A DNA stretch of 64,000 nucleotides from Phoronis australis (taxonomy: Eukaryota > Animalia > Phoronida). This document shows positions 10,978 through 62,784 of this stretch, one piece after another (within the stretch, counting starts at the first letter, position 1; every line of letters begins with the position of its first letter). The notes beneath the pieces were generated by a model. That model was not told the DNA's origin and did no database searches. It was given only the letters and a program-made list of their open reading frames with translations. Made by a program: the position numbers and the translations under genes. Location: NCBI GenBank assembly GCA_002633005.1, contig NMRA01000149.1, positions 378,192 to 442,191 of the forward strand, read 5' to 3'.

Positions 10978-11158
10978 GTGTCAGTAGCGGCCAACACAGC
11001 GGATGAGCTAACCCGTAGCGAAGGCCGTGATGTGCGTCTGGAGGAGGAGCCTGATCTCCAGCTTCCGTTCCTGTTGCCGGAGGATGGTTACTCCAGCGAC
11101 ATCGTCCGAGGACTCCCCAATGGTCTGCCAGACTTCCTTGAGCCTCTCAGTCAGACGG
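10978..11158 (+). CDS. AFDN: Afadin exon, post-Dilute conserved block
   Basis: cgccag|VSVAANTADELTRSEGRDVRLEEEPDLQLPFLLPEDGYSSD...LSQT g|gtacgt. Confidence 0.95.
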
Positions 11159-11889
11159 GTACGTTCACGAGCTGGCCTTGTATGGGTGTTTGGCTGTGTT
11201 CATTGCACAAGTCACTGCTTGGATTGAAACTGAATGTTAGGTTTGATGACTCTGTATTGTCTTCCTGTTAGAAATTTAACCTGTGCAGTACCAGCAGTAG
11301 GACTAGTAATCAATCCATTGAGTCCAAAACATTGAAAATATGTAGTTGGATTAGCAGTAAGATGTGATTCAGTAGCATTTTACATTCGTGAATACATGAC
11401 ATCATATGACCTCAAAGGGGTAAGGTATGACTGGTGTGCACCTTTTATTTGTTGCCTTTACCTCTATAATTATGCCCAAAATGGTGTAATTTGATCCTAA
11501 ATTGATGATAAGCATATTTGTTGACATTGGGCATCGTAATGTCACTGGTTTTATCCTAGAAACTCGGCTTGCATTTATACTGACTTATGGCTCTCCCAAT
11601 TCCTCGTCTTTCTGTTAAACATTCAGACTGGTTGCTATTAGTTACATCACAGCTTGCCACAGCTGTCTGCAGTGTTACTTGTCCTTTAATGTTGCGTATT
11701 CCCGTTTTCCAAAAATATGATTTAAATTTTCCAAACATGCAGCCATAGTATGTGTTGCTTGATGGAATGTTTGTGAGGAAATTTGTTGTCGCCAAATTTC
11801 TTAAAAGTCTGTTTTCAAGAACTACAAGATATTTCTGTGTCTTCTTCACTTGAGTTATAACAGTGTGAGAATGTGTCATCTTCTTATAG

Positions 11890-15880: not shown

Positions 15881-16605
15881 TTTGTGGAGCCATAGCTCCG
15901 TTGTTTCTGGTCGGATTTTTCTGATTTTGTGCCAATCTTTGACGCCCCTTGATGGATCTGAAATTTGGGGAAAATCCCCTCATTAAATTACTGGCCAATC
16001 ATAGCTTCAGATAGTTCATGACACGTAACACAGAAATTGAAAATGGTAAATAAGTTCATAATCTCTGCAACATGCAAAATAGCCTTGACTGCCTAAATCG
16101 ACCGTTGCCCTTTTCACAGATATTTTTAAAACTTTTTCTCTCGGTATTTTGATTTTGCTTTAAACAACAGATTTATTCTATCAACAATAATTTGCCAAGA
16201 AAAAAGAATCCAAAATGTGCAAAAATTTCATTTAAAACTGCTGATGTCCACTGTCTGCGTGTGGTCTGTATTAGAGTAGAAGAGCAAGTGTTACCCTGAA
16301 GTGATTCACCTGTTGGAGGTTTTGGGAGCTAAATATTTTTGGCAACCTCAGACACTGCCAGTTCAGAACAGAATTCCAGTTCAGAGACGGTATCAAATAG
16401 TTGTTTCATGTCATGACTGAGTTGGAGGGATAACATCCCCCCCACACACTTTGGGTGTGCTTAAGGGATGGTAACCATGGCAACAGCAAACGAAAAGAGG
16501 AAATGGCACTAGCGTTGCTAGAAGATGGTTGCAACTCCCACATCCTGACCTGGTGCAAGAAAGCCATGCTTAATTAGTTAAATTTATATCTCATTTTAAT
16601 GTGAT

Positions 16606-16773
16606 TAACTGGATGGTGACATGATGAGATGTTTAACTGGATGGTGACATGATGAGATGTTTAACTGGATGGTGACATGATGAGATGTTTAACTGGATGG
16701 TGACATGATGAGATGTTTAACTGGATGGTGACATGATGAGATGTTTAACTGGATGGTGACATGATGAGATGTT
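16606..16773. repeat. 28-bp minisatellite x6 (TAACTGGATGGTGACATGATGAGATGTT)
   Basis: Six identical tandem copies. Confidence 0.95.
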
Positions 16774-26300: not shown

Positions 26301-28595
26301 TAAATATGGCAGTGATTTCTCCCCAAGGTTATTTGTGGATGCACTTCTCGGTTGTCAAAAGACAAGCAATGTCGAAATGCTTCATCTTTTTGAGTTCTGC
26401 ACCTAGGTTCCTTCAGACATTGTTCTGAAAATTTTGGGCACACCCAACAAAGTTTGAAGCCACTGAAAAATGAAAAAGGACAATTATGGCAAATAGTTTA
26501 GTCCAAAATCAATGAGATTTTACTTCGGATGACCTGCTACTGGGCAATATATGTCTTGTGAAAATTGTTTATGTGGATTTGATTGATGTTTATGTGGTTC
26601 ACAAATATGAGATAACCCTTTGAATTGTGTTGGTCAGCTTAAAGTTATTCAACCAAGGCCTGGACACACTTATAAGAATGTGGTTGTGGTTTTATGTCCA
26701 GTTACATAATGGTGTGATTTTCAATTACTGTGGGTGTTTATTCATCATATGATGACACAGTTTGTCATGTGTATGATGTATGATTTGTATTGTCATGGGA
26801 TGCTCATAATGTACTCTCCTTCCTTATTAAGTTAGGAAAGACAACTCAGTGTATAACAACCTGTTATACAGGGGGTGTCCTTCCTAATAAAGTGACATCA
26901 CACACTGCACTGTGCCTTGTTATACAGGGGTGTCCTAGTACAGTCACAACATACTCCGTTCCTACACTGCCATGTCATACAGCTATACTGTCTTGATTTG
27001 CAAAGTTCAAAATTGAATTGAATGAAACGCGCCAGGCAAATTATTTTAATCATGAATAAATTGGAGGTTATAATTACTGTAAGGTTCCTATGAATTTCTT
27101 GATTTCTGATTGTGATGTTTCCATTTTGTCAGTGTGTTCATGTGCCCTCTTCAGTTCTCGTGGAAGTTCAAAGGAATGAAAAAAATAATCAAAATTGCCA
27201 TTTGAAAGAAATAAGTAATGCCATGCATGAGAGAGCCTGGAATTGGATTTTAGAATGCCAATAGCTTTTCAATTTAACTCGCTTAATCATGTTCTTTATA
27301 GTTTTGTGCCTTCAGAAGGGTTAAATGTCTATCTGAAAGGAGCGGGACATGTTCAGATACGTTTATATTGATTATAGACGTTTCTCATTGATCCTTTGTT
27401 TTAACAACATGATACCTTGATACCTTGAAAGTCTTATTATTGTGTTACCTGCTGATCATGAGATAGCGTATTTGTGGTATCATTACTGTACAACTGTTGT
27501 GCATGTCTATGTTGATGATGGCATGGCAGTTTTCACATTGGACATTTGCTGCTTTAACAAAATGAATTGAACTGGTCTAGCACCTGTTCTTGTGGATATT
27601 AGGTGTGCCAATCTGCTCCTCCACTCCAACTGATGCTGAAAGTCTCCAAGCGAACTATTGAATTGGAATATGGTGACGAAATGTTATGGAAGCCCATAAA
27701 TTGACACGAGGGATAAGAAACGCTCATTTTTATGATGCACTTGTTGAATGGACCAAGCTTGTTAGCTGTAAATCTGTTGTGTGGATTTGGGTGCAGAAAT
27801 GTTTACCAACTCTTCCTGGACTCCTAGCTATGAATTGATAGACGCAGTAATAGCTTGTCGGAATTCGGCAATGGGCAAATGACATGGACAAATGACTGAT
27901 AATCACGGCAATACTGGTACACTAAGTGGCGTGGTGCGCATAACATTCGGCCACTTAGTTGCATTGAGCACTAGAGATTCCAATGTTTAATATTCTTGTA
28001 TTCATTTCATCAAAATTGGATTTCGTAATTTGTTTCCTAAATATTGAAACGCGTTGAGTTTCTATCTGCATGATTCTCTATCGTCCTGGTCAACACTTCT
28101 TGTGTTTTTATTCCTGTCTGATCTATTCATAATCGCTGCTATTATACAAAGTCTTGTTGAAAATTCCTAACATTATCCTAGTGCTGAGGTTTGAACTGTA
28201 AACAAAATATTTTCCATATCCATTGATGGGCGTGCCAAGTTCAGGGGATCTTGTTTTTCTTGGTTTTGTCCAAGTGACCATTTGTTAAAGATCAACTTGT
28301 GTCGGCAAAAGGGCGTACTGAACCTGGAGTTGTGGCCTGTTCAGTCATTGCAATGTTAGGAACACTGACAGCCTGGATAGGATGTCATCAAGCATCTCTT
28401 ACTTGAACTGTCTGCACTGGACCAGTGTCCATGTCAAATGTGACAGTCTATTAAGTATTGGAAACCTGTTTGAGCAATTCATACCTGTATGGAGTTCACT
28501 GTGTTGCTTGTTTGAAAGCACACCGCTTTTTGTTTAAGGTTTGACTGGAATAGTCTAGGTCTTCTGGCATTTGCTTTGTTTTTTGTTTGGCACAG

Positions 28596-30164
28596 TTAAA
28601 TATGGTGCAGGAGTTGGTGATGGTGGATTTTGACACTAGTTTGTCAAGGAGTGATCAGAGCAGTATACCAGGCATTGGTGTGATGAGGCAGAGATCAATC
28701 AGCACTGTGGACAAGATAAGTAAAGATATTGGCTTAGTGAAGCCTGCTGTGTTGACCAGAAGTGAGGGGAGCGTGAGCGTTTTAGGATCTTCCTTGGACA
28801 GAAAAGGAAGCAGACGATTCAGAGAAATATCCATCCCGCCACGGAGTGATTTAGCTGCTTTGGAGAAAAGGAAAGGAAATTTAAAGGGGAAAGCTGGAAC
28901 TGATGGAGAGGAGACTGGCCTGCTTAAACCCAGTGAAGAATTAGAGCTTAGAGAAGTCAAGAATGGTAATTCAGCTAACAATAGCTGTGTTAACAATAGT
29001 GTGTTTTATAGGCTTTACCCAGAGGTGGACAAAAGAGGTGGTTGCTTGAATGGGGCCAGTGACTGTAGAACTCACATAGACTATAATACTGCTGTAGTGG
29101 AAGTTGATGCGAGTCGCAACCGTGCACACAAGGAGTCTGTCTCCATTTCCAGTCCACCAGGGTACAGTGTTAGAGACAAGGGTTGGTGTGTGGCTGTGGG
29201 AGCATTTGAACAGACGTTGGCCTATAGTGAAGTGTTGAGTGGACAGGAGATGGAGCTGATGTCACCTCCCCGCCAACCTGCGCGAGTATCTAGCAGGAGT
29301 GTGGGGCGTCGCAAGGTTAGTCGTTCACAGAGTGGTTCTGGCGTCATCGTGGAGGTGGCGCCGGATGAGAATGCTGACTTGGCAGCTTGTGACATGTACA
29401 GTCGGAAGATCGAGCGTCAGGCTAGCATCAGCCAATGGGAGAAGAAAGAAGCGCGCCGTAACGCAGAGGACAAGATCTATTATAAACCACATGTTGGCTC
29501 ACCTACCACTCCGCCATATAGGAGAATCACTGGTCATGTCACATTTGGCCTTCCACCAAAAGATGAAGACAGTTGGGAAACTGTGTCGGAGCCCGTAGTC
29601 GAGTCATATATCCCAAAGTTGTATCAAGGTGTTGGTCACAATGCTGACATGTATGCTCGTAAAATTAAGAGTCCAATTGTATCTGCAGACGCTACAGATA
29701 GATATCCTGTGACCTCTCAAACGTTACCACGGAGGTTGTCCAGTAATCGTATGGTCAGTGCGGAGGCTTGGGACAGCTCTTCATTACTAAGCACACAGAG
29801 TGATGCCTATTGCTATCAACCTATGTCACGTAACTCACAGAAACTGTCTTACAGCTCTACGTCCTACACACCTACTTATGAAGGAACCTTTAATTATGAT
29901 GAGGTATTTGTGACAAGTCCGAGTCAAGACGGGAAATCTTCACGTAGTCCAAAGCATGTTGTTTTTGTTGACAATGCTAAGCAGTCAAAAGCACTAAGGA
30001 GAAGATGGAGTGAACGGATTGAGCGGAAAAACAGTGCCGATTTGTTGAGCCGTTGTCGCAGCATGGCGCAGTACGTACCTGCCCGGTCCTTGCGGAGACG
30101 ACGCACAGTCAGTGAGCACACGCCCAGACGAAGTACTGCTCGCTTCTCAACTGTTGGACGAAAA
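28596..30164 (+). CDS. AFDN: Large intronic coding exon (523 codons, Ser/Arg-rich, probably disordered) inside the PDZ-splitting intron
   Basis: 536-aa ORF in AT-rich DNA, bounded by a strong acceptor (ttgctttgttttttgtttggcacag) and donor (aaa|gtaggt), both phase 0. ATG at 28602 in aatATGg context. No transposase or RT motifs recognised. Confidence 0.75.
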
Positions 30165-33100
30165 GTAGGTGGTTATTGTTATGCTTGTATTTCTTGAGGG
30201 TCTGCAAGATTGATTGTTTTGGGAAGTTTGTTTAATTTGTAGCGTTTGTGTGTATGTTCTGTCACTTTCTGTCCTGTCCATGGAATGAGAAATTCTGAGA
30301 AACCTGCATTGTGCGTTAATGGTCACGTGCGAAATATTCCGTGTTCATTGAATATAGAGGGATGGAGCTGTGGGCATTTGAGGTCTACATAAAATCACAG
30401 TCTTAATGAAGTTGCTGGTCTTTTCCATTACATGACTTCAATACATTGCTTCAGTTTGCGCTGAGGTTACTAAACTATAAGTGGGTTTTTCAAAATCAAC
30501 CATTGCTGTTGCACATTTTAGAACGGGAATTGCTTTATGAATACACTAAAAACCTTATTTTGGTTGGGGTTTGTTGTTTCATTTTCATCCATTCAAAAAT
30601 GTCTTCATTTGAGTTGCATTCCATTAGTGGCTGTGGTTGTGTAGGTTTCCTTTCATTTTGGATCTCTCCTACATACTGTTCAAAATCCAAACCAACTTCT
30701 AGTTGGCACTACATGAGTAACTCCGTTAGTGACTGGAGCTACTTTTTATAAACATGCATTGGATTTCTGTACTGGTAGCCCCACCTGTTGGTCCCAGATT
30801 CTGTTGTCAGAGCAATTTGACGTGATCTTATCTGCTCCCTCAGCTAGTATCTCGACTATTTAATCTATTTCGCCTGTTTTCCCCACTTATAATCAAAAGA
30901 CCTATTTTGAGTTTGTGTTGCTTGGCTGTGTGAACATGATCAAAATGTTAATTATTCTGCTGGCCCTTAGTATGATAAGAATCTTCTACAGATTAGTAAA
31001 TGTGCCATTATAGGTTTTACCTTTTAACCCAGTCAATTCCAACTTTTATACTTGCAAAGTTTTCTCTAATAACAAATTTGGGTGTCGCAAAAGCTCTCAA
31101 TTAGCTCGGCCATTGTGCGAGCCGAATTTTGATTCTGTTTCCAACAGCTTGGCAAAGGTGACTTTTCTAAGGCGAGAATGTAGCTTTTGTGATGGAACTT
31201 TGGACAAGTGTTGTTTGACCAGCATAAAAATGTTGGGGACGCGTGTGCCATTATGCTGGGGCATAGCTGCATTGTTAGTGCCTAACACGGTCAAGATGAA
31301 TGTGTCAATTGTTTCGTAAAATATCCAAAATTTCAAGTCCTGTGAAAGAAATGTTTTGAAGGAGCTTGTTCATTTAATACATTTTAGTGTAGGCGACTTG
31401 TGCAGTTCAAATTGCATATCTTAGTGAGCAAATATACACCATAATTTCCTCTTAGTTTGGTTGAATTCACATGTTAGGAAGTAATGGGGTGGTTAATGTA
31501 GAAATAAATTGTACAGGGGTTGCTGTCATTTACTATTGTCAGCGATGTAAAAATCTAGCACTTACATTAGATACATGGCCAATGGCAAGGAGCAAATCTG
31601 CTATTGTATTGAATCATAACAGCAGTGTTGTAAATTTCATAACCAGGATTCAGGGTTAAGTGGGCATGAATTTTACAATGGCTGTGTTGTTAACATTAAA
31701 TTGTGGCAACATTTGTGTAAACCTATTCCAGATTTATAGTCTCAGTTTATTAAGGAAAGATTTACAAGCTCTGTCAGGCTGGATTTAGTTTTTATCATAA
31801 CATTTGAAGGGTGGGGTGTCACAACGAAATGACGGTTTAATTTTTAGATTATTCTATTTGGTTTGTGTCGCTGCATTGTGCCAGGCCAGCCGAGTGTTTA
31901 GACAGCTAGACGGCTATTGTGCCCTTCAAACGCTTATTGAATCGCACAGAAATGGCTGCCACAGCCAGCCATTTGCATATGAATAGCGCCAATTTAGTGT
32001 AGTGTGCATTTTCATTCAGTCGTATGTGTGCGTTTAAATCAATGTCAAACCTCACGACGAGGAAGGCTTTCCTCCAACGAAATGGCTTGTAGGTGTTGAT
32101 CATCCAACTTCATCACTGAAAACCGGTTTGGATTCTTAGTGTCTCTTGTTTTATTTGGAGTCGTCACACTTGGTTGCCTGTACTGGATCCTTGAAGATAT
32201 CCTTATTGGTTGTTTACGTAGCCAGTGGCTTTAAATGACGTGTTGTGGCAATACCTGCAATATTGGTGTGCAATGCTTGAAAGGAATGTCGCACTTTCTT
32301 GGTGACTTTTTGTAACTCTATTGTTCCTCAAGTGCTGATTTTCAACCAAAGAATTGTTTCCCACCCGTCCTGCCGTGGTGTAGGTGTGCAGTCATTTTTT
32401 ATAGTGGAAAGTTCACTAATCTCTTTAACTGCTGCTGTCAACAGCCCTAAGACAGGCTTGTGTTTGGGAAACTATTCAAGCAAGGATAAGCCCTGTTGAG
32501 GACAAGACACTTTGACAAGTTGTGTATTGTGTACAGCTGAGTTGGAAGTGTTTTGAACATCATAGAGTTGTGGTTAGGTAGTATATCTGTAGATTGTTTA
32601 TCTACTGCTAGGTAAGTCTACTGTGTTATAGTATGTGAGTTTCTAAGATAATTCTTAAGGGTTATTTAGTTGTCAAGAAAATCTATGCATTAATAGGTCA
32701 ACTTTTGTAAATACCTTACTTCACAGAAGTGTCTTTATGCGCAATTTTCCGTTTCTCTGACTTCCATAAAAGTTCATCATTGTAGTAATTTCATATTGGT
32801 AGCTAGAGAAGGTGATAAACTGTCATTGCTATTTTACATTGAACGTAATGTGAGCAGTGCACAAGGAGCCTAATAAGCACTCTACTCCCTTTGTGCAATC
32901 CTAATTTGTCAACACCTGTAATTTCACCTAATTTTGAACCTCAAAGGGTCCTCTGGAATACAGCAATGTCAACACGAATAGATCGAATAGATCGCCTTAG
33001 GTATTCCCCACTGATCCTGAGACTTTTTGGTGAAAAGTCAACCACACTTTAAACAGCAGGATACCAAAGTTGTATTAGCTCCCCTGAGGCATCAGACAGA

Positions 33101-36100: not shown

Positions 36101-36845
36101 AAATGCCGTATACACACAAAGATAGTTTCAGACACTTGCATAAAATTATGGACTAGTCACAGTGTTGTGCCAACGATTGAATAACAAGGCCCGTGACTAA
36201 GGCAACTAGGCTAAGTATGTTTTACTGGGTGTAATTAACAAACACACAAATTATAACTACTGTAATGGTTATGCAAGTTTTACCGTAGGTTACTGTCACT
36301 TCAAAAATTGAGCGCTTTTGTTAACGGATTTACTTCCCATTCTATAACTGTGGTACCTTGCGATTGAAAAGCTCATTGGATTACATGGTCCACATTTAAT
36401 ATGTGACAACGTCTTGAGGAGGCTTGTGGGCACTTGCCAAACTTGTCCTAACCCCCTTCTCACTATCTCACTAGTCCTTTTGACTACATATTTCTATGTG
36501 TGGCTCCGCTTTTGTCATATTTACTGTTGTTAACCACTTATCGTTTACTATTTTATGAAATCTAATAACTTGTTTTATTGAGTCTAATGACCAATCTATT
36601 TTACCCAGTTTTGTGTAGTATTTCCTGTTAGGCCAACGATGGACAGGCACTCAATAGTTGCTAGAGTGACGCTTGCGTGATTTATGATTCGCAGATTATG
36701 TTGTCAGCTGTGAAAAATAAAATGCCAGAGTTATTAAATGCCCTTTAGACACATTATCAGAGTTTTTTTCGTAGTCTATAAAGCCAAGGCAGTTTGAGCA
36801 AGACTGTGTTGCATAGCTCAAGTGTGGTGTATAAAGTAGTGAACA

Positions 36846-37155
36846 AACTGCAGTCCTGCAGCAGTCGTACAGCTATGCTTGCTATTACAAATTGCCGTCC
36901 TGCAGCAGTCATATAGCTATACTTGCTATTACAAACTGCTGTCCTGCAGCAGCCGTACAGCTATGCTTACTATTACAAACTGCTGTCCTGCAGCAGTCGT
37001 ACAACTGTGCTTGCTATTACAAACTGCTGTCCTGCATCAGTCGTACAGCTATGCTTGCCATTACAAACTGCTGTCCTGCAGCAGTTGTACAGTTATGCTT
37101 GCCATTACAAACTGCTGTCCTGCAGCAGTTGTACAGCTACGCTTGCTATTACAAA
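36846..37155. repeat. 44-bp minisatellite, about 7 copies (TGCTATTACAAACTGCTGTCCTGCAGCAGTCGTACAGCTATGCT)
   Basis: Visible tandem array. It explains the three overlapping repetitive ORFs. Confidence 0.95.
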
Positions 37156-39548: not shown

Positions 39549-41319
39549 GTAAGTATGCTAGCCCATCTTACAGTCAAGCTAAAGGTTATGGCTAAAATTT
39601 CTAAACTTGCACTTAAAGAGTAGCTGTAAACTAAATACTTGACACCAGCCATTTTACTGTAAAAGTCCCATTTTATAGTAGCAAGAAGGAGGCGAGTTAT
39701 AGTGACTTCTCCCTTGAGAAATGCTAAACCTGTTGTATTCATGAAGTCACCCACTCCTCCCTGTATATCAGTCACTTTAAAATTGACACATATTTGCTAT
39801 TCATTGTGTGCAAGGTTCTCCTTGCAATCTTGCTGTTTGCGGTGCGTGGGCTAAATTTAAATTGTTAGCAAATAAGGCTTGTACACCAGTCATGTACTTC
39901 ATTAGTATGCTACCCTGTTGCTTGACAGATCTATTCACCTGAAATCAAATTTAACTTGTGCTGTCAATTTTGACCTGTTCAAAAACAATTCATACAAGTC
40001 AGTATGCACTTCAAATGTGCAGAGTACTCCGGGGCAGCTTGGCTTAGCATAGGTAAAGATTCTTTTATTTTAGGCACAACATGGTGACATTGTGCAATTT
40101 ATGTTTCATTGTTATGAGTACTTTATTTCTCCTAGAACTCAATGCATAGATGATAAATCTTCAGCAGGTGCCCAAGATTATGAATATCTACCAGGATTCA
40201 GTCTTACCATTGCCTAGCAACACTCGTTAAAAAGCTGCCTGTGTAGTCAACAAGTTTTTTTGTATGGCTAGTGAGTGCATATGACGTTTTGATGATGATT
40301 AATACACGTTAAATATTTGAAGTAGTTCCTCGGGTGTCGGCAGCCCTGTATAGTGTCATTTTGCTGTTTCTGGCTGTTACACAATGCTTGATTGTGGTCA
40401 TGTTAACCAATGGAGTTGAAACAGGAGCAATAAATGACTTTTTACAAAATACATTTTGACGTATGAGTTACAGAACATGGTCAATGAAAATGCTTTCAAA
40501 ATATGAATACAAAAGTGACTTATTTTGGGTGTTGCGCTTACTATGTTAAGGATTCATTAATTCAAAATTGATTAATTCTTTATAAAAGTATTGATTACAC
40601 TTTTCACTTTATGACCAGTAGTTCAGAGATAATTTTAGAGACATGCAAAAATAATCTCACTGACACAATGCGATTGCTTAACTCGGCCCAACTGGCTCAT
40701 TCAAAAAGGGACAAAAACTAACATGGCCCATAGGTCCTCCTGCAAATATTCCCATAGACTTGAGGCTGTGTGGGTCAATTCACTCACACTTACGTTTTTT
40801 AAATGATACCTGGTAGTTGACAGCAAACAACAGTTGAGGTGCTCCATGTGTGACCTTTTGTATTCTGTTTTTGAGGTCATGACCTGTCTGAGTGACACTG
40901 TCATTGATTGATTCATCACAACACCTGCAGGCAGGGATTCTTTGTTACCTTGACGTGACCTCTTCTCTATTCCCTCCTATCATGGAATTCTTGATCATAA
41001 ACCACTATTTATGAATCATTGCAAAAGTTGGACATAAAACATTGTTTTAATGACAGGTGTGTACAAATAGAGCACCAAAATGATGAGGAATCGAATGCGT
41101 GGACTAAGATTTTATATAACATATTTATTTATAATAAGTTAAAAGTATGTGAAATGGTGTAATGTTAGAAAATAAAGCTCGCTATTTATTTTCTGTTCTA
41201 TCTTTTTAAGTAAAATTCAATTCCTCAAAATATATAAAGAGAAAATTTCGCTGCCATGAAATTTGTTCATGGCCGTTTGTCAGCTGTTATTTTGATGGTC
41301 AAATTAATATTATAATGAA

Positions 41320-42583
41320 AGCGCTCTGAGGAGCGAAACTTGGCGAAATTAACCAAAAAAAACACGTTCGAGAGGACGAGAAAAGACAACGACAGAGATG
41401 ATGACGAAGATGACAGCTATGACGATGATGGTGGCGATAATGGACAACCGTAGTTATGATATCATTCATATAACGAACGTAGAGATCAGAAATCACTAAG
41501 AAATAGGCTACAGTCTTGAGCGACACTTGGCGAAATTAATTGAAGAAAAGACGACGTCGGAGATGATGACGAAGATGACGAATATGATGACGAAGATGAC
41601 GAATATGATGATGGTGGTGGTCATGATGAAGAACATCATAACATTCATATGACGAATTTAGATGTCATAAATCATTAAGAAATAGGCTGCAGTCTAGTTC
41701 AATAGAAGCTAAACCAACCTGAATCCAGCAAGAGCGCTCAACAAAGGAGCAGCGTTATCACAAAATCTCAAATAACTCAAAAAGTAGACGTCGTAGAGAA
41801 AAATGGAAAGCATCTTCTGAAAGCCCGTTCAAAGCTCTATCTAAATTGATGGTATAGCCTAATTCCGTAAATTTTTCGAAAAAAATGAAATTTTGCGTTT
41901 TTTTTTAAGAATTTCAAACTCAAATAACTCGAAAACGGTAAGTCTGAGAAAAAAATTGTTACAGGCCATTTAAAAGATAATACTTCAAAGAATCTACATG
42001 CAAAAAATCACGTCTTTTTCTCTTCCCGTTCAAAATCGCACTCCAGACGACTGAAAATGGGTCAACATGCGCCATATCCGCCATCTTGAATGCAACTTCC
42101 GGTTTTTTGGCTTTGTATAATAGCATGTTACAAGAAACTACTACCTGTAAAAATTCGAAGGAATTGGTCTTATAATACGCCCTCTAGAGGAGAAAACGTT
42201 TTTAGGCCAAAATCGAGGTGCGCATGCGCGATCGCCGATATTTCCGCCATCTTTAACCGGAAGTACACAATTTCGAGTCTACTTGTAGCAAACTTCCGGT
42301 CCATTAACTGTGCCGATTCTTAGTCTTTTACGTAAAAAATTGTAGCCTCCAGAAGCATTTGAACCTTTAAATGGAAACAAAATGGCCGCCACAGCCGCCA
42401 TATTGGATCCGATTTTGACGAAAAACAATAGGCTTCCAGGACTTCCGGAAGTACGTGTTATGTGTAAATTTCGTGATGATCGGACGAAAATTGCGACCTG
42501 TATCGTGCGAACAAACAAAAAAAAAAAAAAACAAACTTAGTGTCAGAGCAATATACTTGGCGAAATTTATTTCGCCAAGTAAT
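41320..42583 (+). mobile_element. Non-autonomous Helentron/HINE (DINE-1-like) element
   Basis: Subterminal motif ACTTGGCGAAAT at 41338 and 41525; 3' palindrome ACTTGGCGAAAT-TT-ATTTCGCCAAGT at 42555-42580; internal ~187-bp duplicated unit with GAT/GAC simple repeats; A-rich tract before the hairpin; CpG-rich. The family assignment is an inference. Confidence 0.65.
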
Positions 42584-42682
42584 TATTAGTTGAAATAGTT
42601 TAGTCTTGATGAACAGTAATGATACAAGTGTACCTGTAGGTGATAGATGTCTGCTGTGTGTTACATATACATTTATTTGCAG

Positions 42683-43919: not shown

Positions 43920-45200
43920 CAGATGTGTTACTATGAAACTGACAATTAATGACGAGTATCGGATTGATCTGACTACCACTGCGTGCATTAGTGGCAAATT
44001 TATTTGTTTTTCATTTGCTGCTGTATCTTCAGAGTTCCATTTGTCATGAAATTTGCGAATAGGAGATGACGATGTTTTTTCTATTTTCAGACCAATTCAG
44101 CGAAGTCATTTTTTTATTCTTTCGTCTGTTTTTTTTTTTTGGCATCTGCCTCTGTATACCCCAATTCGCTCGAAGGATCATTGTGAAAATTGGCAGGTGC
44201 AAACCTGATCATAAGACCTTAGCTGACGTCGATTCTCGGATACGTCCGAATACTGCGGAACCTTTTAGTGGCAATTTTGTTTTTTTGCCTCCGTAGGTAT
44301 ATCTCCTCAACCCTTTACTGAATCTTTATGAAATTTGCCATGTGTTTCTATGAAGCTGATGACAGATGAGGATAAGTTTGGAACTTATGTCACTTACGCT
44401 GGTTATAACTTTAGCTTGTACGTTTGATTTTGTCTGCAGTGTTCCTTGATGGGTTTTTATGAACTTTGGCAGATATGTTTCTGTTAAGGAGACAACAATA
44501 TCTTTCCATGTTCTGATGTAATCAACATATTCTGTGCCACTTAGTGGTCAATTTTGTTTTTTCAAGTCTTTTGACATCCGCCTCTCCATCAGCTAAACTG
44601 CTCCTAGGATAATTGTGAAAATTGCGTTTCTGATGAGAAGATCACGATTGACATTGATTTTCGGACAGTTCCATCTACTGTAGTGTCCCCTAGTGATGGA
44701 TTTTGTTGCGTATGCAGCTGTAACTCAACTCTTAGTAGGATCTTCTGAGGTTGGTGTTTGTCTATGAATGTGACAATAGTTCACCATGACTTTTGGATGG
44801 ATTTACATTTGCCTCTATCTCTAGACTTCCTTAACTTATAGTCATGAAGTTGGACAAATTGGTTTCTGTTATGGAGGCAACAATGCCTTTTCATTCTGGG
44901 ATGGATTCAGCGTGTTTTGCACCACCTAGTGGTCATTTTTATTGTTTTCAAGTCTGCATCATGTCCTCTGTCTCTGTATCCGCTGAACCACTCAGAGGAT
45001 CAGATATCTCCCTTCTGACATGAGCATAACTGACATTGACATTTTTTCGCGTCTGTGGCTGTATTTCCTAAACCCGTTGCAGAATCTTTGTGAACTTTGG
45101 CAAGTGTATTCCTATGAACCTGACAACAGATGTATGGATCCAACTAATGCTGTGACAATTTGATTTTACAATGCCTCTGTACCTTTGGAGTTAGTGGACA
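43920..45200. repeat. Degenerate multi-unit interspersed repeat with recurring (C)CTAGTGG..ATTTTGTTTT and TGAAATTTGGCA blocks; related sequence at 1-420
   Basis: Recurrent motifs gccacttagtggtcaattttg, cccctagtgatggattttg and ccacctagtggtcatttt, matching cctcctagtggcggttttg at ~117. Confidence 0.55.
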
Positions 45201-45608: not shown

Positions 45609-45628
45609 CAGAAAGCCGTCGACAACAA

Positions 45629-45659
<31 letters not shown>

Positions 45660-45848
45660 AAGGCCCCGGCAGCAATCAGAAAATGCGTCCGAAGAGCGAG
45701 GACGTCTCACGGTTTAATGGTTCCAAGGACGGCCCCAGTCCCATGAGGGAATACCCTCCTGGTGGATATCCCCGTGGACCTGGCCCCGTTGAGAAAGCAC
45801 GACCTTTGAACCAGGGTCCTGATAGTAGGTCTTCGCCAGCTCTTCATA
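45609..45848 (+). CDS. AFDN: Afadin exon with polyQ tract and RPKSE motif
   Basis: NAGNAG acceptor aacag/cag; AESRR(Q)13GPGSNQKMRPKSED...SSPALH a|gtaagt. Phase 1 to 1. Confidence 0.9.
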
Positions 45849-46097
45849 GTAAGTACTTCACCTGGTGACGTTCGTCATCGTAATCATCACAGTCATCCTC
45901 GCCCGTCATCACGCTGGAGGTGGGGCTGAGTGACTGAAAAGACGGGCTCTTTTGGGTAGACTGTAGTTTTTGCCCGAGTTTTTAGCCTGCATGTCATCAT
46001 TAACCTGTTTGTTCACCTCACTCAGTCCCACTTCACAAGTCACACACGTTCCTCCTGTCCTCTATTTGTTCATCCTTGCGTTTCTGTTTTTGTGTAG

Positions 46098-49000
46098 ACC
46101 TGCGTGTACTCAAAGCCAGACAGGTCAATCGTCAGCGTAGCAACGATTGCGGTCACAGCATGCGAGATCTGAGGAGTGATGGTTCAGAGTACTCGGACAG
46201 TTCCTCGCTAGATAGTTGGCCACTGAGACAGCGCAGTGTTAGTTTGAAAAACATGGACGAGTTAGAACGCAGTGCAGAATTTGATTCACGTCCTTCACGT
46301 GCGTTGGGACGAAAGAAAAGTCTGCACGATATGGTGTTGGAGGCTGAGGATCGAGATCTCACAGCTCGGATTGACAATGACATTATCTCTGGTAGGTTCA
46401 AATCACCAACTCCTCTTCAGAGAAAACCGTCAACCCCAAGTGACCTCCGACCTCACTTACAAAATGCCAGTGTCAAGGACATAATTGTCGATGCGGAGGA
46501 AAGAGATTTGAGAGCTGAGCGGGAAGTTGTCCAGCTTTATTTGAAAAGTTGTGAACTAGCAGACAAGTCACCGAATTCTCAATCAAAAAACCCAAATGGC
46601 ATCGAAATTTTGAAGAAGAACGGCGATAGGGTCTTACCTGCCCTGTCTCGTAGTTTGAGCCTTAAGGAGGTGGTGAAGGAGGCAGAAGAGAGAGACGCAA
46701 GAGCGCGTTCAGCAGGAGAGAGCACTGCCACGCTTCCCCGTGACTTGAGCAGAGTGCACGAACGTAAGCAGAGTGTTAAGGACCTGGTTGTTCAGGGTGA
46801 AATACGGGACTACAAGGCTGAAGAGGAGGATAGCGTTGTACAACCGAGACACAACAGCATTGGTTCCATTTCTGAGTTTTCCAGTGTCTTTGCCAAACCC
46901 TTTCAGCCAAACGCTGACATCCATCAAGCAGAACTTACATCTGTTGAGGTCTACGATGGTGACAGAGGCTATGAGATCGTCCATGATGTATCAACTGGTA
47001 TGGAAAGGAAGCGCAGCTTGCAGGACATGGTTATGGACGCAGAGGACCACCACAACATAGTCAAAATTGATGCGGAGATGGTCAATCGTAAGATTAACAT
47101 GGGCCGTCGTAAGTCTAGTCTGCAGGACCTATTGAAGGATATTGAGACTGACCCGAGCTTCAGTCCAAAGAAGTCAGGTGACTGCAAGAACTACCAAGTA
47201 GTCTATGCTGAACCATTCGTAGAAAGAAAGTCAAGTAATCGCAACCTGGCCAGGCTGCTAGACACTCCGTATGAGGACGTCAACAATAACCAAGAAAAGG
47301 ACGAGATCCAAAAAGCAGACGATGTCCACATGGACATCAGCTCAAATAACCTTGGGACTGTAGGTGAAGTAGAAGATGGCCTAGTTTCTGATGCACCACT
47401 CAAACATCCGCAAACATTTGACTTACAAGCATCCCCAGGTTCCCATTATAATGAACTAAACCTTCACGTTGATGACTTCCGGGATGCAGCGGAAGCAGAG
47501 GACACTAAGTGTAAGTTTGCTCTTTCACATGACAGACGATCAAGTGATAGAAATAACGTTGACCAACAGTTAGTGAATCCTCACATAAAAAGTGTCTCTG
47601 CAGATGAGGACAAACCATCTGCTCACATATCAATTTTACAAAATTTGTATATTGCATCTCCCGACCCTTCAGAAAGTTCTAGAAACACCAGCACTGTTAA
47701 TCAACTGGGGTCCTTTGCTAATTCAAGATGTACAACCGAAAATATTTTTGTTCCACTCTCTAATGCTTCCAAGTCGGCTTTAAATACTTCACTTGAAAAT
47801 GATAATGTCAACCTTGATGGCCAAGCAGAGGCTAAAAAAACAGAGGAAAAGCCTGAGGTGGCTGATGGTACAGATTTTTCAATGTCTGCGTTTGGCGATG
47901 ACGATGACGGTGTCTTTGACGTCAGTGGTGAAGCTGACTTAAGACTGTACAGGAAATATCTAGAAAGGTCTGATGATGATGTTGGTGATTCCAGCTCTGA
48001 TCTGGGACTGACCTTCAAGGATCCGGAGAAAAGTGGCGATTCCACGGAGATTTGGATTTCGGATGAGATGAAACAGCTGCGCCAAATCGTGAAGCGCAAG
48101 CGTAGCATTGGTGACTTGATCACAGAGACTGAGCTCAGACCTATGTCAACTCTGAGTAGCAGCATGTCCGATGTTCCTAAAATAGACCAGAAACGTCTAC
48201 AGCAGAGGAAAGCCAGTGTCAGAGATATTGTCCAAAGCACTGAAAGGCAGGCATCTCGACCCTCCAGCAGTCTGTCTAAAACATCAGATGTCTCTTCATT
48301 TTCGGCAGTTGTAGACCGTGACATAGGACCTATGGTCCAGCGTAGAAGCAGTGTGAGAGACTTGACGAATACATATGAATCTGGTGAGCTAGAGACTAAG
48401 ATTGACAAGAAAGACTCCAAACAGTCTGTAGACATGGCTCATAGCTCTGGTCGTCGATACAGCATCCCAAGTTATGTGAGCGAGAAGACTAGTTTGAGAG
48501 AACTTGTCTACTATGCAGATTATCATGGCTTCCATGACGACCATAATGAAAAGTCCAAAATTCGTGGCTCCTCAGTCTCTTCGCACCGTCGTGAAATTGC
48601 ACGGCTCTCCCGGAGCAGAAGTGTCACTTCTCAAATTGGCACCGACAACTCGACTTTGCGTGACCTTGTCCATGAGGTTGACAAGTATGGAAAGCCAAAG
48701 ACGAAGGGAAGAAAGCTGTCCCTGTCAAAAACCACGCCTGAACTTCGTGAACTTCGTCGACTGAAGTCGCTGAGTTCTATCACGTGTGCAAATGAGGAGT
48801 GTGATTTGCGTGAACTCATCAACCAAGTTGACGCTGAAGGTAGTGAGACGTTTTCCACGACATCACAAACAACTGCTGAGCAACGAGAACTGCGACATCT
48901 GTGGTCAACCAGTTCAATTAGCTGTAGCAATGATCTGGGTGATCTGAAAGAACTCATACGGGACTTGGATAATGAGAAAGAAAGCCGGAAACCTGAACGT

Positions 49001-49607
49001 AAGACATCCTCGCCTATGAAGACCTTGGAGCGTGTAGAGATTGATCAGCTACGTAAAATGAGTTTGGTCACGAGTGAGGATGTGGCTGGTGATCATGTTA
49101 ATCTGCGAGAACTTGTCTGGGATGTGGACGATGACGAGGTCAATAAACCAAAAAAGGAACGTGGTCTCTCAGCCTGTCAAGTTTCACCAGAGAGGGCGCA
49201 GCTGCGGCGTTTGCGCAAAATGAGTCTTGTTAATGAACCTGAAAAGACAAGGATCTTTGAGGAGGGGGATGGTGACAGCACTAAGCAAATGCAAAGGAAT
49301 TCCCTTTCTAAAGAGAAACTTGAAATTGAAAGACTGAGAAAAATGAGTTTGGTAGCTGGTCAGACACAGTGGGATGAAAAGGAGGAGAATTTAGCGCCTG
49401 CTTGCCAGCAGGAAAGTGTAGTCTGTAATAAGCCACTGCAAGACAATGTTCTTTCTGTGTCTCACTTGTCCACTGAACCTTGTGTTAGTGAGAGTATAGA
49501 GAGAACAATAGCAGACAGTGGTCTGGATGTGTCTGAGCCATTACCCAAACACACAGAAGATAGTGCTGATCCCTGGCCGGCAAACAACCTGTCATCTTTG
49601 TCAAACA
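46098..49607 (+). CDS. AFDN: Giant cassette exon, 3510 nt / 1170 codons, repeat-containing
   Basis: 1186-aa ORF bounded by tttctgtttttgtgtag and a|gtaagt. Phase 1 at both ends, matching the flanking exons (45848 and 50133). Confidence 0.85.
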
Positions 49608-50132
49608 GTAAGTGGTTCTGTGGCTACACTGCTTAGTGAGAATGTCTGTCTGTCCATTTTTTCAGAGAGAAACTAAGATACACTGATATAAGTAAGAATT
49701 GTTAATCTTCCTTTAACGCCATCTGTTGGTCACATCATGCGACCTCTTGTTAAATCTGTAAAGGTCTTTGTCTTGACTGGGGCTTTCTGGTTATTGTGCA
49801 GAAACTCTAGTTCACTGAGCTATCGGAACCAGCGATCGATTACCTTAATCCAAACAGGTTTAATAGGAGGCATAAAAGGTACACCGAGTTATTTCATTTA
49901 CCCCATACATGGTATAAAACATTGATTAAGGGTATTTATTGAAAGCAATTTTCGAGAAGTTGTTCTTGATTCTACTATTAAAGGTCACTCCTTCACCATT
50001 TCAAATCACTGTTTTGTGTTGATCTATTATTAAGTAAGGGTGCTACTGCACAATTCCCTCTAATGTTTTTATCGTTATTTTACCACTTGTGAACTGGGCT
50101 GGTCAGTACTGATTATCCCATGACTTTTTCAG

Positions 50133-50360
50133 ATCAACAAGAACGAGTGGAAGACCGTGAAGGCGGCTTCCCCACCCACTACAATCGACACCCCCGCGGA
50201 CAGGAGGTGCCTGCAGATCAGACACGCTCCAAATCAACATCTAATCTCAAGGTTGACCCCATGGAAGCTCATCAGCCCCAGGGGCCCCGCCCCGCCATGT
50301 CTGCCAGTACCCTTCCCCGTAACTATCAACAACGTCAACCAGAATATGTCAATCGACCAG
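50133..50360 (+). CDS. AFDN: Afadin exon, Pro/Gln-rich region
   Basis: tttcag|QQERVEDREGG..RSKSTSNL..EYVNRP g|gtatgc. Confidence 0.9.
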
Positions 50361-51230: not shown

Positions 51231-51861
51231 GCAAGTCTGTACATTTACCTAAATATCTACGAAACTACAGAATTTAACTCTGACAGCAAAACTTTATATT
51301 TTCTGAAATTAGGATTTGCGTAGAATTTGAATTTTGACTTTTTACCAACTTGCCAATAATTAAGAATGGTAAATTCATAGCAAAATAACAGGATCAATAA
51401 CATGACAATTTCACATGATATAATTATTCAAGATAAAATCTCAAAAACGCTGTTACTGTATTCTAGGTTATCATTTCATTTGATGCAGCTTCAAATTTTT
51501 TTTTCATAAAAATAATGTTAAGTCCTAATTTTGATATCCTCTCATGCAAGAGTGGAACATTTTAACAACAATTCCTAACAGCATTATGGAGAAATATGTA
51601 TAAACCATAGTATCTTGAAGTTTCATGTGAATCTGATCTGCCATTTATGAGATACAATGTTCTCAATTTGGTCAAAATTGAAATTTTTCTAGGGCACTGC
51701 CTAACCTTGCCCCAAAGTGGTTCGGTTAAGAATTCAACATTAACATAAACAGGGGAAAATGTAGCTTTAAGAGTTTGGAATTATTTGAAGGTTTTTTGGC
51801 TGAGCTTGGCGTTCTTGTGTGTGTAGGCTGTTATTGATGATGGCATCAATCATAATTTCAG

Positions 51862-55050: not shown

Positions 55051-55215
55051 CTTGATCCATATAGAGTTCTTTGCTTGATCCATATAGAGTTCTTTGCTTG
55101 ATCCATATAGAGTTCTTTGCTTGATCCATATAGAGTTCTTTGCTTGATCCATATAGAGTTCTTTGCTTGATCCATATAGAGTTCTTTGCTTGATCCATAT
55201 AGAGTTCTTTGCTTG
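55051..55215. repeat. 23-bp minisatellite x7 (CTTGATCCATATAGAGTTCTTTG)
   Basis: Seven identical copies with no spacers. Confidence 0.95.
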
Positions 55216-57396: not shown

Positions 57397-58645
57397 TTGT
57401 GATTCTTCAAAGTCGTCTTGACACAAGAAGTGTTGTCGGTTTGTACAACTTGAGTAAGGGCATGTCGCTAGCTTCACCAACCATCGTCTGCTTCATAGTG
57501 CAGCTGCACTCTAAGCTGCAGATGTTAACACACTGGCTGAGTGTGCCAATGCATGAGCTGTCTGCCCCAACCTCAAATCCGGAGTGTTTTAGCACCTTTC
57601 AAACAGCTCCGATTTTCATTCGAAAACAACAACTATTTGTATGAAATTAATTTACTTGAAATCCTTGCTGTATGCGTAACCCACATTTTTAAAACAACAT
57701 TTTTTGCGAAAAGGGGCACAGTTAACCTCAAAGCAATACTTGTTGTTCAACACTGCGCAACTACTCTATCATGCTGCAGATTGTAGCTTTATATTTATTT
57801 CTATAACGGAAAGTTAATCCCAAAGTAATTCTTTTCACCAAATAACTTTCTGAAAAATGTTTTGAATTGGTTTTAACAGTAATTGATAAGGTTACTAACT
57901 TTCAAGTAAAAATCAAATCAATGTAGCAATTAAATGAAGTGTTGAATCTACTCTTTAACCCATTTAGTCCCATAGAATTCTAATTTCTGCTTTGACAGCG
58001 TAACACTGGTCAATCAGTAANTTGTGATTCTTCAAAGTCGTCTTGACACAAGAAGTGTTGTCGATTTGTACAACTTGAGTAAGGGCATGGCGCTAGCTTC
58101 ACCAACCATTGTCTGCTTCATAGTGCAGCCGCACTCTAAGCTGCAGATGTTAACACACTGGCTGAGTGTGCCAATGCATGAGCTGTCTGCCCCAACCTCA
58201 AACCCGGAGTGTTTTAGCACCTTTCAAACAGCTCCGATTTTCATTCGAAAACAACAACTATTTGTATGAAATTAAATTACTTGAAATCCTTGCTGTATGC
58301 GTAACCCACATTTTTAAAACAACATTTTTTGCGAAAAGGGGCACAGTTAACCTCAAAGCAATACTTGTTGTTCAACACTGCGCAACTACTCTATCATGCT
58401 GCAGATTGTAGCTTTATATTTATTTCTATAACGGAAAGTTAATCCCAAAGTAATTCTTTTCACCAAATAACTTTCTGAAAAATGTTTTGAATTGGTTTTA
58501 ACAGTAATTGATAAGGTTACTAACTTTCAAGTAAAAATCAAATCAATGTAGCAATTAAATGAAGTGTTGAATCTACTCTTTAACCCATTTAGTCCCATAG
58601 AATTCTAATTTCTGCTTTGACAGCGTAACACTGGTCAATCAGTAA
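57397..58645. repeat. 624-bp tandem duplication separated by a single N (probable assembly artefact)
   Basis: 57397-58020 and 58022-58645 are near-identical (about 6 substitutions seen), with n at 58021. Confidence 0.92.
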
Positions 58646-62058: not shown

Positions 62059-62784
62059 GAACGTCAACAGTTGCGTGAGATGGAGGCTGTGCGCGATGCT
62101 GAGGAACGCGCCATCCGTGAAGATATGCGTCGCAAGGAGGAGCAGTCTCGGCAGCTGTATCAGTATCACACGTATCAAAATATTGACAACAAGGGAAGCA
62201 TAGCTCCACCCCCTCCTGAACGCAAATCTTCATATGACCTTGTCAATCAACATGGCTATCGTGCTGGTCCAACATCCCCGTCTTCATCGACCCTTCCAAG
62301 ACCAGATCCATCAAAAAAGAGTGTATCGTTCAATGCCGCTGTAGATCCAGACTCTGCTGTGTACAACAATGTACCCCCCACTGGCCAACAACCAGGTCAA
62401 CCGCAGCCGTATAATTACATGGCCACCAATAACAACAACACAGACTCGCGCTATGAGTTTAAAGGTCAGTCAGCCCCTCCTCCAGGGCCGCAGACAGCTC
62501 CCTCTAAGGACAGGTTTGAGTCTCCAAGCTCCCAGCAGGTCAATGTCCAGTACACAACTTCATCAACGCCTGGGGTGATTGGTGCTCAGGAGATTTATCG
62601 CGACCCGCGGATGCGTATTGAGGCTCGACGGAGGTCAGAGAACAAACCAGAGCAGGTTGAGAAAATGTCATTCAAGGACAAAATGAAATTGTTTGCACAG
62701 GAGGCAGGTGAGGGTACTCCTAAGGAAAGACCAAAAAGTTCAAGTCTACAGCGAGCAATCGAGTACTCACTAAATGGTCAGTAA
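62059..62784 (+). CDS. AFDN: Afadin terminal coding exon (C-terminal/F-actin-binding region)
   Basis: ttatag|ERQQLREME...APPPPERKSSY...TPGVIGAQEIYRDPR...EKMSFKDKMKLF...SLNGQ-TAA. Confidence 0.95.
   Translation, partial: ERQQLREMEAVRDAEERAIREDMRRKEEQSRQLYQYHTYQNIDNKGSIAPPPPERKSSYDLVNQHGYRAGPTSPSSSTLPRPDPSKKSVSFNAAVDPDSAVYNNVPPTGQQPGQPQPYNYMATNNNNTDSRYEFKGQSAPPPGPQTAPSKDRFESPSSQQVNVQYTTSSTPGVIGAQEIYRDPRMRIEARRRSENKPEQVEKMSFKDKMKLFAQEAGEGTPKERPKSSSLQRAIEYSLNGQ

What the first reader, a model, noticed from the sequence alone, without database searches (positions are those of the whole stretch)
46098..49607. 3.5-kb giant cassette exon with an apparently undescribed kinase-site plus amphipathic-helix repeat
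Seen: a symmetric phase-1 exon of 1170 codons in the post-PDZ region. About 14 copies of a motif [RK][RK]xS[LVI]x[DE][LMI][VI]xxx[ED] can be read: RKKSLHDMVLEAEDRD, NASVKDIIVDAEERD, RSLSLKEVVKEAEERD, RKQSVKDLVVQGEIRD, RKRSLQDMVMDAEDHH, RKSSLQDLLKDIE, RKRSIGDLITETE, RKASVRDIVQSTE, RRSSVRDLTNTYE, KTSLRELVYYAD, STLRDLVHEVD, CDLRELINQVD, GDLKELIRDLD, VNLRELVWDVD. About half start with a PKA-type [RK][RK]xS site. Established: giant alternative exons create tissue-specific giant isoforms in ankyrins and other cytoskeletal scaffolds. Inference: a giant afadin (over 3000 aa from this window alone) with a multivalent, phospho-switchable array of short helical motifs, perhaps binding actin or another partner.
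Basis: partly seen in the sequence, partly recalled or inferred. Interest (0 to 1): 0.78.

Follow-up and report, generated by a model that had tools for sequence, protein, structure and literature searches.

The report
Giant repeat exon in invertebrate afadin
A 3.5-kb stretch inside an animal's cell-junction gene afadin is transcribed and likely spliced in as an optional exon, adding 1,170 residues with 14 copies of an unlisted short motif predicted to form kinase-tunable docking helices, possibly for actin; ants and wasps carry an unrelated giant insert at nearly the same place.

Summary
Window 46098-49607 is an open, AG/GT-bounded, phase-1 frame of 1,170 codons behind the PDZ domain of an afadin gene: 3,044 aa with it, 1,874 without. 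Sense-strand RNA covers it at about 3x in 2 of 3 raw-read runs, about a fifth of the next exon. The skip junction is seen. No inclusion junction reached the 3-read threshold. Seven of 10 sequence differences are silent. The 14-copy repeat is real and matches nothing in Pfam, PDB or 1.84 billion proteins. Giant afadins are not new: 27 hymenopteran gene models of 2,769-3,171 aa carry a non-homologous insert of like composition nearby, and a fly Canoe alternative exon is published. The repeat shares the register of the actin-binding motif VxxLxxxFE, but 11 of 14 copies lack its P8 anchor, so the partner is open. Tissue specificity, phosphorylation and binding are untested. The scan has not noted this before.

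The parts
45609..45848 (+). Upstream exon of the afadin disordered region (poly-Q, RPKSE motif, ends SRSSPALH); its donor joins 50133 in the skip form
45849..46097 (+). 249-nt intron with in-frame stops. Pyrimidine fraction 0.81 at -40..-5 of the acceptor, higher than all 26 other acceptors of the gene (0.50-0.78). About 1x sense-strand depth in X2 and X3
46098..49607 (+). Giant exon, 3,510 nt, 1,170 codons, phase 1-1, AG..GTAAGT; S 13%, D 9%, L 9%, E 9%, R 8%; predicted disordered with isolated helices
46310..47146 (+). Repeat cluster 1, copies 1-6 (P-3..P9 at 46310-46348, 46460-46498, 46649-46687, 46763-46801, 47006-47044, 47108-47146); all have Ser at P0, 5 of 6 have Arg at -3
47147..48094 (+). 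Repeat-free acidic and Ser/Asn-rich spacer (329 residues between the starts of copies 6 and 7)
48095..48379 (+). Copies 7-9 (48095-48133, 48206-48244, 48341-48379), each with [RK][RK]xS. Copy 9, SVRDLTNTYE, is the closest match to VxxLxxxFE
48482..49129 (+). Copies 10-14 (48482-48520, 48644-48682, 48794-48832, 48932-48970, 49091-49129); P0 is S, T, D, D, N and Arg-3 is lost
48593..49351 (+). Second motif [EQ][LI]xxL[RKWS]xxS, 6 copies (48593-48622, 48749-48778, 48887-48916, 49037-49066, 49199-49228, 49322-49351). The first four start 18-21 residues before copies 11-14; all six are predicted helices
49608..50132 (+). Downstream intron; depth 0-0.5 in the first bin behind the donor, so no sign of a 3' UTR
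50133..50360 (+). Downstream exon (phase 1), depth 12-16 in X2 and X3

Best explanation
The stretch is a transcribed, often-skipped coding segment of an afadin gene that is likely spliced in as a minor cassette exon; it would add a predicted disordered 1,170-residue arm whose 14 predicted amphipathic helices likely act as weak, multivalent, possibly kinase-tuned docking sites for the cortical actin cytoskeleton. SHOWN: gene identity, open symmetric frame, sense-strand transcription, skipping, excess of silent differences, a real repeat. INFERRED: splicing at both ends into a full-length afadin of more than 3,000 aa (about 0.8). INFERRED: the repeat arose by old local duplication and is kept as a binding motif (about 0.65). 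PREDICTED: each copy folds on binding as a short helix with S/T/D/N as N-cap, D/E at P3, a hydrophobic face at P1/P4/P5/P8 and an acid at P9. UNTESTED: basophilic kinases phosphorylate the Ser at P0, or the RxxS of the preceding second helix in the late copies, and change binding. UNTESTED: the partner is F-actin, bound by avidity (about 0.3). The isoform would lengthen the PDZ-to-actin-binding linker and add many weak contacts in a subset of cells.
For: Afadin domains in order by tblastn. Open 27-exon model. Strongest pyrimidine tract of the gene and a GTAAGT donor in compatible phase. Sense-only depth of 3.06 and 3.20 over 21 of 22 and 22 of 22 exon bins in X2 and X3, against 0 in three intron bins and 0-0.5 just behind the donor; skip joint in 11, 5 and 1 reads plus an X1 contig. 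Silent differences 7 of 10 against 22-34% expected, P=0.0015-0.024; 5 of 8 (P=0.016-0.10) without the two seen only in one shallow contig and one read. Repeat tests. Neighbouring copies are more alike (rho -0.61, permutation P=1e-4) while DNA similarity is gone (best E 0.13). Twelve of 14 copies lie in predicted helices, 4 starting exactly at P1. The SFM register P1/P4/P9 and a phosphorylatable P0 are shared (PMC13364712). The independent hymenopteran insert holds VxxLxxHF in 27 of 27 proteins. Repeat number scales with cytoskeletal binding in the ankyrin-B giant exon (PMC7401806). The Canoe disordered region binds F-actin through short helices (PMC12132324).
Against: No inclusion junction was listed in any of 4 runs; with assumed Poisson means this has a 28-55% chance of happening even if the exon is spliced. 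The upstream intron has about 1x depth, which fits an internal start or slow splicing. P8 is A, V, T or G in 11 of 14 copies, and every entry of the SFM table has F, Y, W, L, M or I there (read by eye). P1/P8 double mutants lose actin binding. No homologue was found, so conservation of the motif across species is untested. The structure models are single-sequence, pLDDT 44. A position score trained on this gene ranks the donor low (3.7 against a median of 8.2), and several in-phase internal donors score higher.
Confidence: 0.4

Rival explanations
1. Same exon, but the helices dock on a folded junction protein, not on actin. Candidates are a Dlg-type MAGUK guanylate-kinase domain that reads R-x-x-pS-helix peptides, or a helical-bundle protein (alpha-catenin, vinculin, talin, FAK) that reads LD-like helices. 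Phosphorylation would switch binding on, and Asp at P0 in late copies would mimic it.
For: Arg, never Lys, at -3 in 8 of 10 Ser copies; basic or small residue at -2; hydrophobic P5; helix after the Ser. The MAGI2 GK pocket requires Arg at -3 and uses +1, +4 and +5 of a helix (PMC10171801). RxxS/T is enriched: 37 against 16.6 in shuffles, maximum 30. The broader LGN/Lgl-type consensus and the LD-motif register are recalled, not seen in a call.
Against: The published SAPAP/MAGI consensus needs Tyr+1 and Ala+4; 0 of 14 copies have either, and Val+4 already costs about 285-fold. S/T/D/N at P0 with D/E at P3 is also the ordinary helix capping box (established knowledge), which explains P0 without phosphomimicry. 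The two papers with the wider Dlg consensus were not held.
Confidence: 0.22
2. The exon is a long charged spacer. The repeats are worn relics of an old tandem amplification and bind nothing specific.
For: Neighbouring copies are more alike. The composition is nearly the same as the repeat-free hymenopteran inserts (Jensen-Shannon median 0.013, n=26). No homologue was found.
Against: DNA similarity between copies has vanished, yet P1, P3, P4 and P9 keep their class in 14 of 14 copies while -1, +6 and +10 vary freely. That is the pattern of a constrained helix face, with the caveat that copies were first picked by this pattern; leave-one-out recovery supports 10 of 14.
Confidence: 0.17
3. The frame is translated from an internal promoter in the 249-nt intron, starting at ATG 46160 or 46253. 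This gives a short afadin with the repeat arm and C-terminal actin-binding part but no RA, FHA, DIL or PDZ domain, and no giant protein.
For: About 1x depth in the upstream intron in both informative runs and no listed 5' inclusion joint. Both ATGs have a purine at -3.
Against: A very strong pyrimidine tract and AG in exactly the needed phase. No cluster of read starts in the intron (table 6).
Confidence: 0.15
4. Not a real exon: a chance frame, a mobile element or unspliced precursor RNA.
For: Low depth and no listed inclusion joint.
Against: Frame probability about 1e-30, silent-change excess, empty true introns, a sharp 3' edge, no copy elsewhere in the window and no domain match.
Confidence: 0.04

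Closest known systems
Hymenopteran long afadin/Canoe gene models (e.g. Solenopsis invicta XP_039309715.1, Athalia rosae XP_012261310.2, Nasonia vitripennis XP_031778403.1; 27 proteins of 2,769-3,171 aa)
   Same: Full afadin with about 670-1,200 extra residues just behind PDZ and the C-terminus kept. Near-identical composition. In Solenopsis the insert reads as one open frame (P0054). One SFM-like helix, VxxLxxHF, in 27 of 27.
   Different: No sequence homology (blastp best E 9.6; phmmer nothing above threshold) and no copy of the repeat. The insert lies before the exon ending SKSVPALH; here it follows the exon ending SRSSPALH, one exon further 3' if those exons are homologous (inferred).
Drosophila Canoe RD/RI alternative exon (PMC10399776, passages seen)
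   Same: Long (718 aa), Ser-rich (14.2%), lower-expressed, fast-evolving alternative sequence in the region behind PDZ.
   Different: It replaces almost the whole disordered region and the actin-binding end; this exon keeps the frame into the C-terminus.
[quoted passage not shown]
   Same: Register P1, P4, P9; helix; Ser/Thr at the N-edge proposed as a phospho-switch; arises de novo in disordered regions.
   Different: The P8 anchor is small in 11 of 14 copies; P1 is mostly Leu; P3 is always acidic and P5 is hydrophobic in 13 of 14.
Giant ankyrin-B exon (insertion aa 1477-3561, 15 tandem 12-aa repeats; PMC7401806, passages seen)
   Same: Giant disordered exon in a scaffold with short repeats that bind the cytoskeleton by avidity; fly and vertebrate giant ankyrin exons arose independently at different sites.
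   Different: Those repeats are basic, contiguous, non-helical and bind microtubules; these are dispersed (34-81 aa apart within clusters), acidic at the C-end and predicted helical.
SAPAP guanylate-kinase-binding repeats (R-x-x-pS-Y-x-x-A; PMC10171801, passages seen)
   Same: Repeated Arg(-3)/Ser(0) helix motifs in a junctional scaffold.
   Different: Tyr+1 and Ala+4 are absent from all 14 copies.

Membership tests
afadin/Canoe | RA, FHA, DIL, PDZ, then a disordered region with conserved helices and C-terminal motif, in order | tested here: met
   tblastn of insect and Ciona afadins hits RA2 (2038), FHA (4372), DIL (8832-11211), PDZ (19074-43654) and the C-terminus (62521-62763); RA1 lies outside the window
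alternative cassette exon | AG/GT boundaries, frame kept with and without it | tested here: met
alternative cassette exon | skipping junction in RNA | tested here: met
   45848>50133 in 11, 5 and 1 reads and one contig
alternative cassette exon | exon body present in sense-strand RNA above intron background | tested here: met
   about 3x in X2 and X3 against 0 in three intron bins; 3 of 22 bins in X4
alternative cassette exon | inclusion junctions at both ends | tested here: inconclusive
   none reached the 3-read listing threshold; about 1-2.5 expected per junction and run
tissue-specific giant exon | inclusion restricted to a tissue or cell type | tested here: inconclusive
   tissue labels not given; X4 has about 1x afadin depth overall
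SFM (VxxLxxxFE) | aliphatic P1 and P4 | tested here: met
   14 of 14 at each (P1: L9, V4, I1; P4: L9, M2, I2, V1)
SFM (VxxLxxxFE) | large hydrophobic, mostly Phe, at P8 | tested here: not met
   A5, V3, T2, G1, I1, L1, Y1: 3 of 14 within the classes seen in Supplementary Table 3, none Phe
SFM (VxxLxxxFE) | Glu (or Asp) at P9; short helix in a disordered region | tested here: met
   E9, D5; 12 of 14 in predicted helices, low confidence
SFM (VxxLxxxFE) | binds F-actin in the SD1/SD3 cleft | not testable with these tools
   no animal actin sequence was available for a complex prediction; needs co-sedimentation
MAGI/SAPAP GK-binding motif | Arg at -3 and Ser at 0 | tested here: met
   8 of 14 copies (8 of the 10 with Ser)
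MAGI/SAPAP GK-binding motif | Tyr at +1 and Ala at +4 | tested here: not met
   0 of 14 for each
PKA-type substrate | [RK][RK]xS consensus | tested here: met
   7 of 14 copies; 18 sites in the exon against 4.5 in shuffles. The consensus is recalled, and other basophilic kinases fit as well
PKA-type substrate | phosphorylated in vivo | not testable with these tools
   no phosphoproteome
hymenopteran afadin giant insert | sequence homology or shared motifs | tested here: not met
listed protein domain or repeat | match to Pfam, PDB or a clustered protein | tested here: not met
   Pfam best E 0.047, below the cut-off; PDB best E 0.07; 0 hits among 1.84 billion

The most novel reading that the evidence does not exclude
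Afadin/Canoe has repeatedly and independently evolved a giant Ser-rich exon just behind its PDZ domain (flies, Hymenoptera, this animal) as a hidden cell-type-specific isoform class. Here the exon carries a new family of phospho-switched docking helices, an SFM-register motif that has lost its aromatic anchor and works by avidity or has changed partner, turning afadin into a 14- to 20-valent, kinase-gated junction-cytoskeleton clamp.
Probability: 0.2. Interest if true: 0.75.

Novelty: new variant of a known kind. Interest (0 to 1): 0.46.

Why it matters
Afadin's disordered region is now the focus of work on how junctions hold the actin cortex (PMC10399776, PMC12132324). That work uses the canonical isoform and mentions the long alternative exon only in passing. 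This locus, with the unstudied hymenopteran models, suggests that giant afadin isoforms recur at nearly the same site with the same composition and no homology, as giant ankyrins did. The repeat offers a natural series of 14 variants for asking what an SFM-like helix without the aromatic anchor binds and whether phosphorylation at the N-cap switches it. If the repeat proves inert, this is an ordinary lineage-specific long exon.

Tried and rejected
No whole genome is held, so no paralogue or second-copy search was possible. Homologue searches for the exon were all blank. Word-index search of residues 40-400 among 2,047-5,000-aa proteins: 0 of 2,495 candidates (weak). phmmer on 1.84 billion representatives: 0. 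Metagenome contigs: 0 of 64 pattern matches confirmed. No Atlas result was obtained. The run search listed no indexed holder on record as RNA; the evidence comes from laying the runs. The C-terminal exon search was limited to 423-2,000 aa and found no close relative, so the lineage is not settled: an invertebrate and not an insect is my inference. The search for giant afadins used an insect DIL region, so it is biased to insects and says nothing on other phyla. One of its 28 hits (a 3,715-aa sturgeon fusion model) was dropped, and P0045 was left out of the 26-insert length and composition comparison. Tandem Repeats Finder finds no array in the exon. Terminal-exon reading rejected: depth ends at the donor, and the only poly(A)-like signal is at 49977 in an empty intron. 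An AKAP-type helix and a PP2A-B56 LxxIxE motif were considered from memory and dropped by inspection (acid at P9; register does not fit). The PDB profile hits (GIMAP5, leptin, calmodulin; E>=0.07) are chance-level. No complex prediction was run: no actin or MAGUK sequence was at hand and phosphoserine cannot be modelled. Fold searches were not run on models with pLDDT 44. Literature: 'afadin' + 'giant exon' gave 0 papers; some searches gave only PMC10399776 on long Canoe exons; one search gave 0; one search gave ankyrin papers. Subscription papers are mostly not covered. PMC3243629 and PMC3975498 were not held, so the LGN/Lgl-type GK consensus remains recalled and untested.
Full report
GENE AND EXON. 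The window holds most of an afadin/Canoe gene on the + strand. tblastn with insect and Ciona afadins finds RA2, FHA, DIL, a PDZ domain split over four exons and the C-terminal motif in order. No close relative was found, so the organism is only inferred to be a non-insect invertebrate. The flagged stretch is a stop-free frame from 46004 to 49636, with an AG before 46098 and GTAAGT after 49607: 3,510 nt, phase 1 at both ends. A 27-exon model, partly anchored on RNA junctions, is open with the exon (3,044 aa from RA2 on) and without it (1,874 aa). The acceptor has the most pyrimidine-rich tract of the gene (0.81 against 0.50-0.78 for 26 others). A small position matrix trained on this gene scores both sites below the median (donor 3.7 against 8.2, acceptor 3.6 against 7.65) and ranks several internal in-phase donors higher, so shorter forms are possible.

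EXPRESSION. Four runs with one species label were laid; most raw reads on this stretch are 99% or more alike. About a fifth of each raw run was read. In X2 and X3 the exon is covered only on the strand that covers the other afadin exons, at mean depth 3.06 and 3.20 in 21 of 22 and 22 of 22 bins. Three intron bins upstream have depth 0 in all runs, and depth falls to 0-0.5 just behind the donor. The next exon has depth 15-16, so inclusion is roughly a fifth. The skip joint 45848>50133 is seen in 11, 5 and 1 reads and in an X1 contig of depth 75; X1 also has two short contigs inside the exon (depth 12.5 and 4). Against the reading: no inclusion joint passed the 3-read threshold, which under assumed Poisson means has a 28-55% chance even for a spliced exon, and the 249-nt upstream intron has about 1x depth. 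X4 has almost no afadin reads, so tissue specificity is untested.

SELECTION. Of 10 differences between reads or contigs and the window inside the exon, 7 are silent; 22-34% are expected (P=0.0015-0.024). Without the two that rest on one shallow contig and one read it is 5 of 8 (P=0.016-0.10). A stop-free run of this length has a chance of about 1e-30. The frame is very probably translated.

THE REPEAT. The core is P0 S/T/D/N, P1 L/V/I, P3 D/E, P4 L/M/I/V, P5 V/I/L/T, P8 mostly small, P9 E/D. Pattern-free self-comparison gives 22 strong pairs against 0.9 in shuffles, and two control regions show no excess. The profile separates the 14 copies (16.5-24.5) from the next site (4.0), and 10 of 14 pass leave-one-out. 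Copies sit in two clusters, 34-81 residues apart within clusters and 329 between them. Neighbours are more alike (rho -0.61, P=1e-4), and no DNA-level similarity remains, which points to old local duplication. Eight of the 10 Ser copies have Arg at -3, and 7 of 14 fit [RK][RK]xS. Single-sequence AlphaFold2 models (pLDDT 44, pTM 0.17) show isolated helices without a fold. They cover 12 of 14 copies and all 6 second motifs, and four begin exactly at P1, as expected if P0 is an N-cap (the capping-box reading is established knowledge). Nothing matches in Pfam, PDB, 1.84 billion representatives or metagenome contigs.

WHAT IT MAY BIND. [quoted passage not shown] P1, P4 and P9 fit in 14 of 14 copies. 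P8 does not: 11 copies have A, V, T or G, classes absent from that table, and P1/P8 double mutants lose binding. Only copy 9 (SVRDLTNTYE) is near-canonical. So the array is not a set of SFMs, though it may work like a weak one through avidity, as repeat number does for microtubule binding in giant ankyrin-B (PMC7401806, passages). The rival partner, a MAGUK GK domain, fits Arg-3/Ser0/helix but fails Tyr+1 and Ala+4 in all copies (PMC10171801, passages). The papers with the wider Dlg consensus were not available; PMC6989407 and PMC8786283 (passages) gave no usable consensus. I put actin at about 0.3, a folded scaffold domain at about 0.2, and leave the rest to spacer function or unknown partners.

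COMPARISON WITH KNOWN AFADINS. A search for afadins longer than 2,757 aa returned 28 proteins of 1,053 candidates, 27 of them hymenopteran afadins of 2,769-3,171 aa that keep the C-terminal domain; RefSeq lists many such isoforms. In the 26 measured, 671-1,201 residues lie between the PDZ end and a conserved downstream anchor, and in Solenopsis the insert reads as one open frame (P0054). Its composition is almost that of our exon (Jensen-Shannon median 0.013, against 0.091 for the canonical disordered region of 24 of them and 0.099 for this gene's own flanking exons). There is no homology and no copy of the repeat, and the position seems to be one exon further 5' (inferred from the SKSVPALH/SRSSPALH motif). 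All 27 hold a VxxLxxHF helix, and the motif around it is absent from the 10 shorter insect afadins checked. Drosophila cno RD/RI have a 718-aa, 14% Ser alternative exon that replaces the disordered region (PMC10399776, passages). The Canoe disordered region binds F-actin through short helices (PMC12132324, passages). Searches found no paper on a giant cassette isoform or on this repeat.

VERDICT. A real, expressed and selectively kept giant segment, probably a minor cassette exon, with a real and unlisted two-motif repeat. The kind of thing is known (giant alternative exons in scaffolds, and long inserts in afadin itself); the repeat and the apparent repeated independent gain at this site are new as far as searched. 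Function is inferred only. Novelty: new variant of a known kind. Interest 0.46.

Noticed in passing
window 28554-30197 (+); candidate exon 28596-30164, ATG at 28602: A second long frame (547 codons, Ser 14%, Arg 10%, no repeats, no Pfam hit) lies in the 20-kb intron that splits the PDZ domain between ...IVAAK and GEHQKDRG.... It has a phase-0 donor at 30164 and a possible phase-0 acceptor at 28596. It could be an alternative first exon giving a half-PDZ isoform, or a 523-codon cassette inside the PDZ domain. No RNA was laid on it.
   Followed up: partly
P0019-P0045, about 400-500 residues behind the PDZ end: The hymenopteran giant insert has a strongly conserved block (WKSPEEVRLGCGRVAALAKHFS) with an SFM-type VxxLxxHF helix in 27 of 27 proteins; no paper on it turned up.
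   Followed up: partly
window 46391, 47108, 47177, 48383: In-phase internal donor candidates inside the giant exon (47108 is followed by GTAAGT) could give shorter forms with fewer repeats.
   Followed up: no
window 57397-58020 and 58022-58645: 624-bp direct duplication, 99% identical, around the window's single N at 58021; probably an assembly join of two haplotypes.
   Followed up: no
window 41300-42600, 44000-45100, 51300-51800: Intronic repeats with deep read cover, on both strands at 41300-42600 and 51300-51800, and many loose ends; these are likely interspersed mobile-element families read from other loci.
   Followed up: no
window 45609-45664: Tandem acceptor (CAG CAG at 45609/45612) and a 13-Gln CAG/CAA tract at the start of the upstream exon; reads are thin there.
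   Followed up: no
window 48878: Five molecules begin at one place inside the exon in run X3 only; unexplained, possibly duplicates.
   Followed up: no
window 3120-3456, 36843-37155, 16605-16773, 55051-55215: Intronic minisatellites (21, 44, 28 and 23 bp units); the first makes a spurious 185-codon frame.
   Followed up: no
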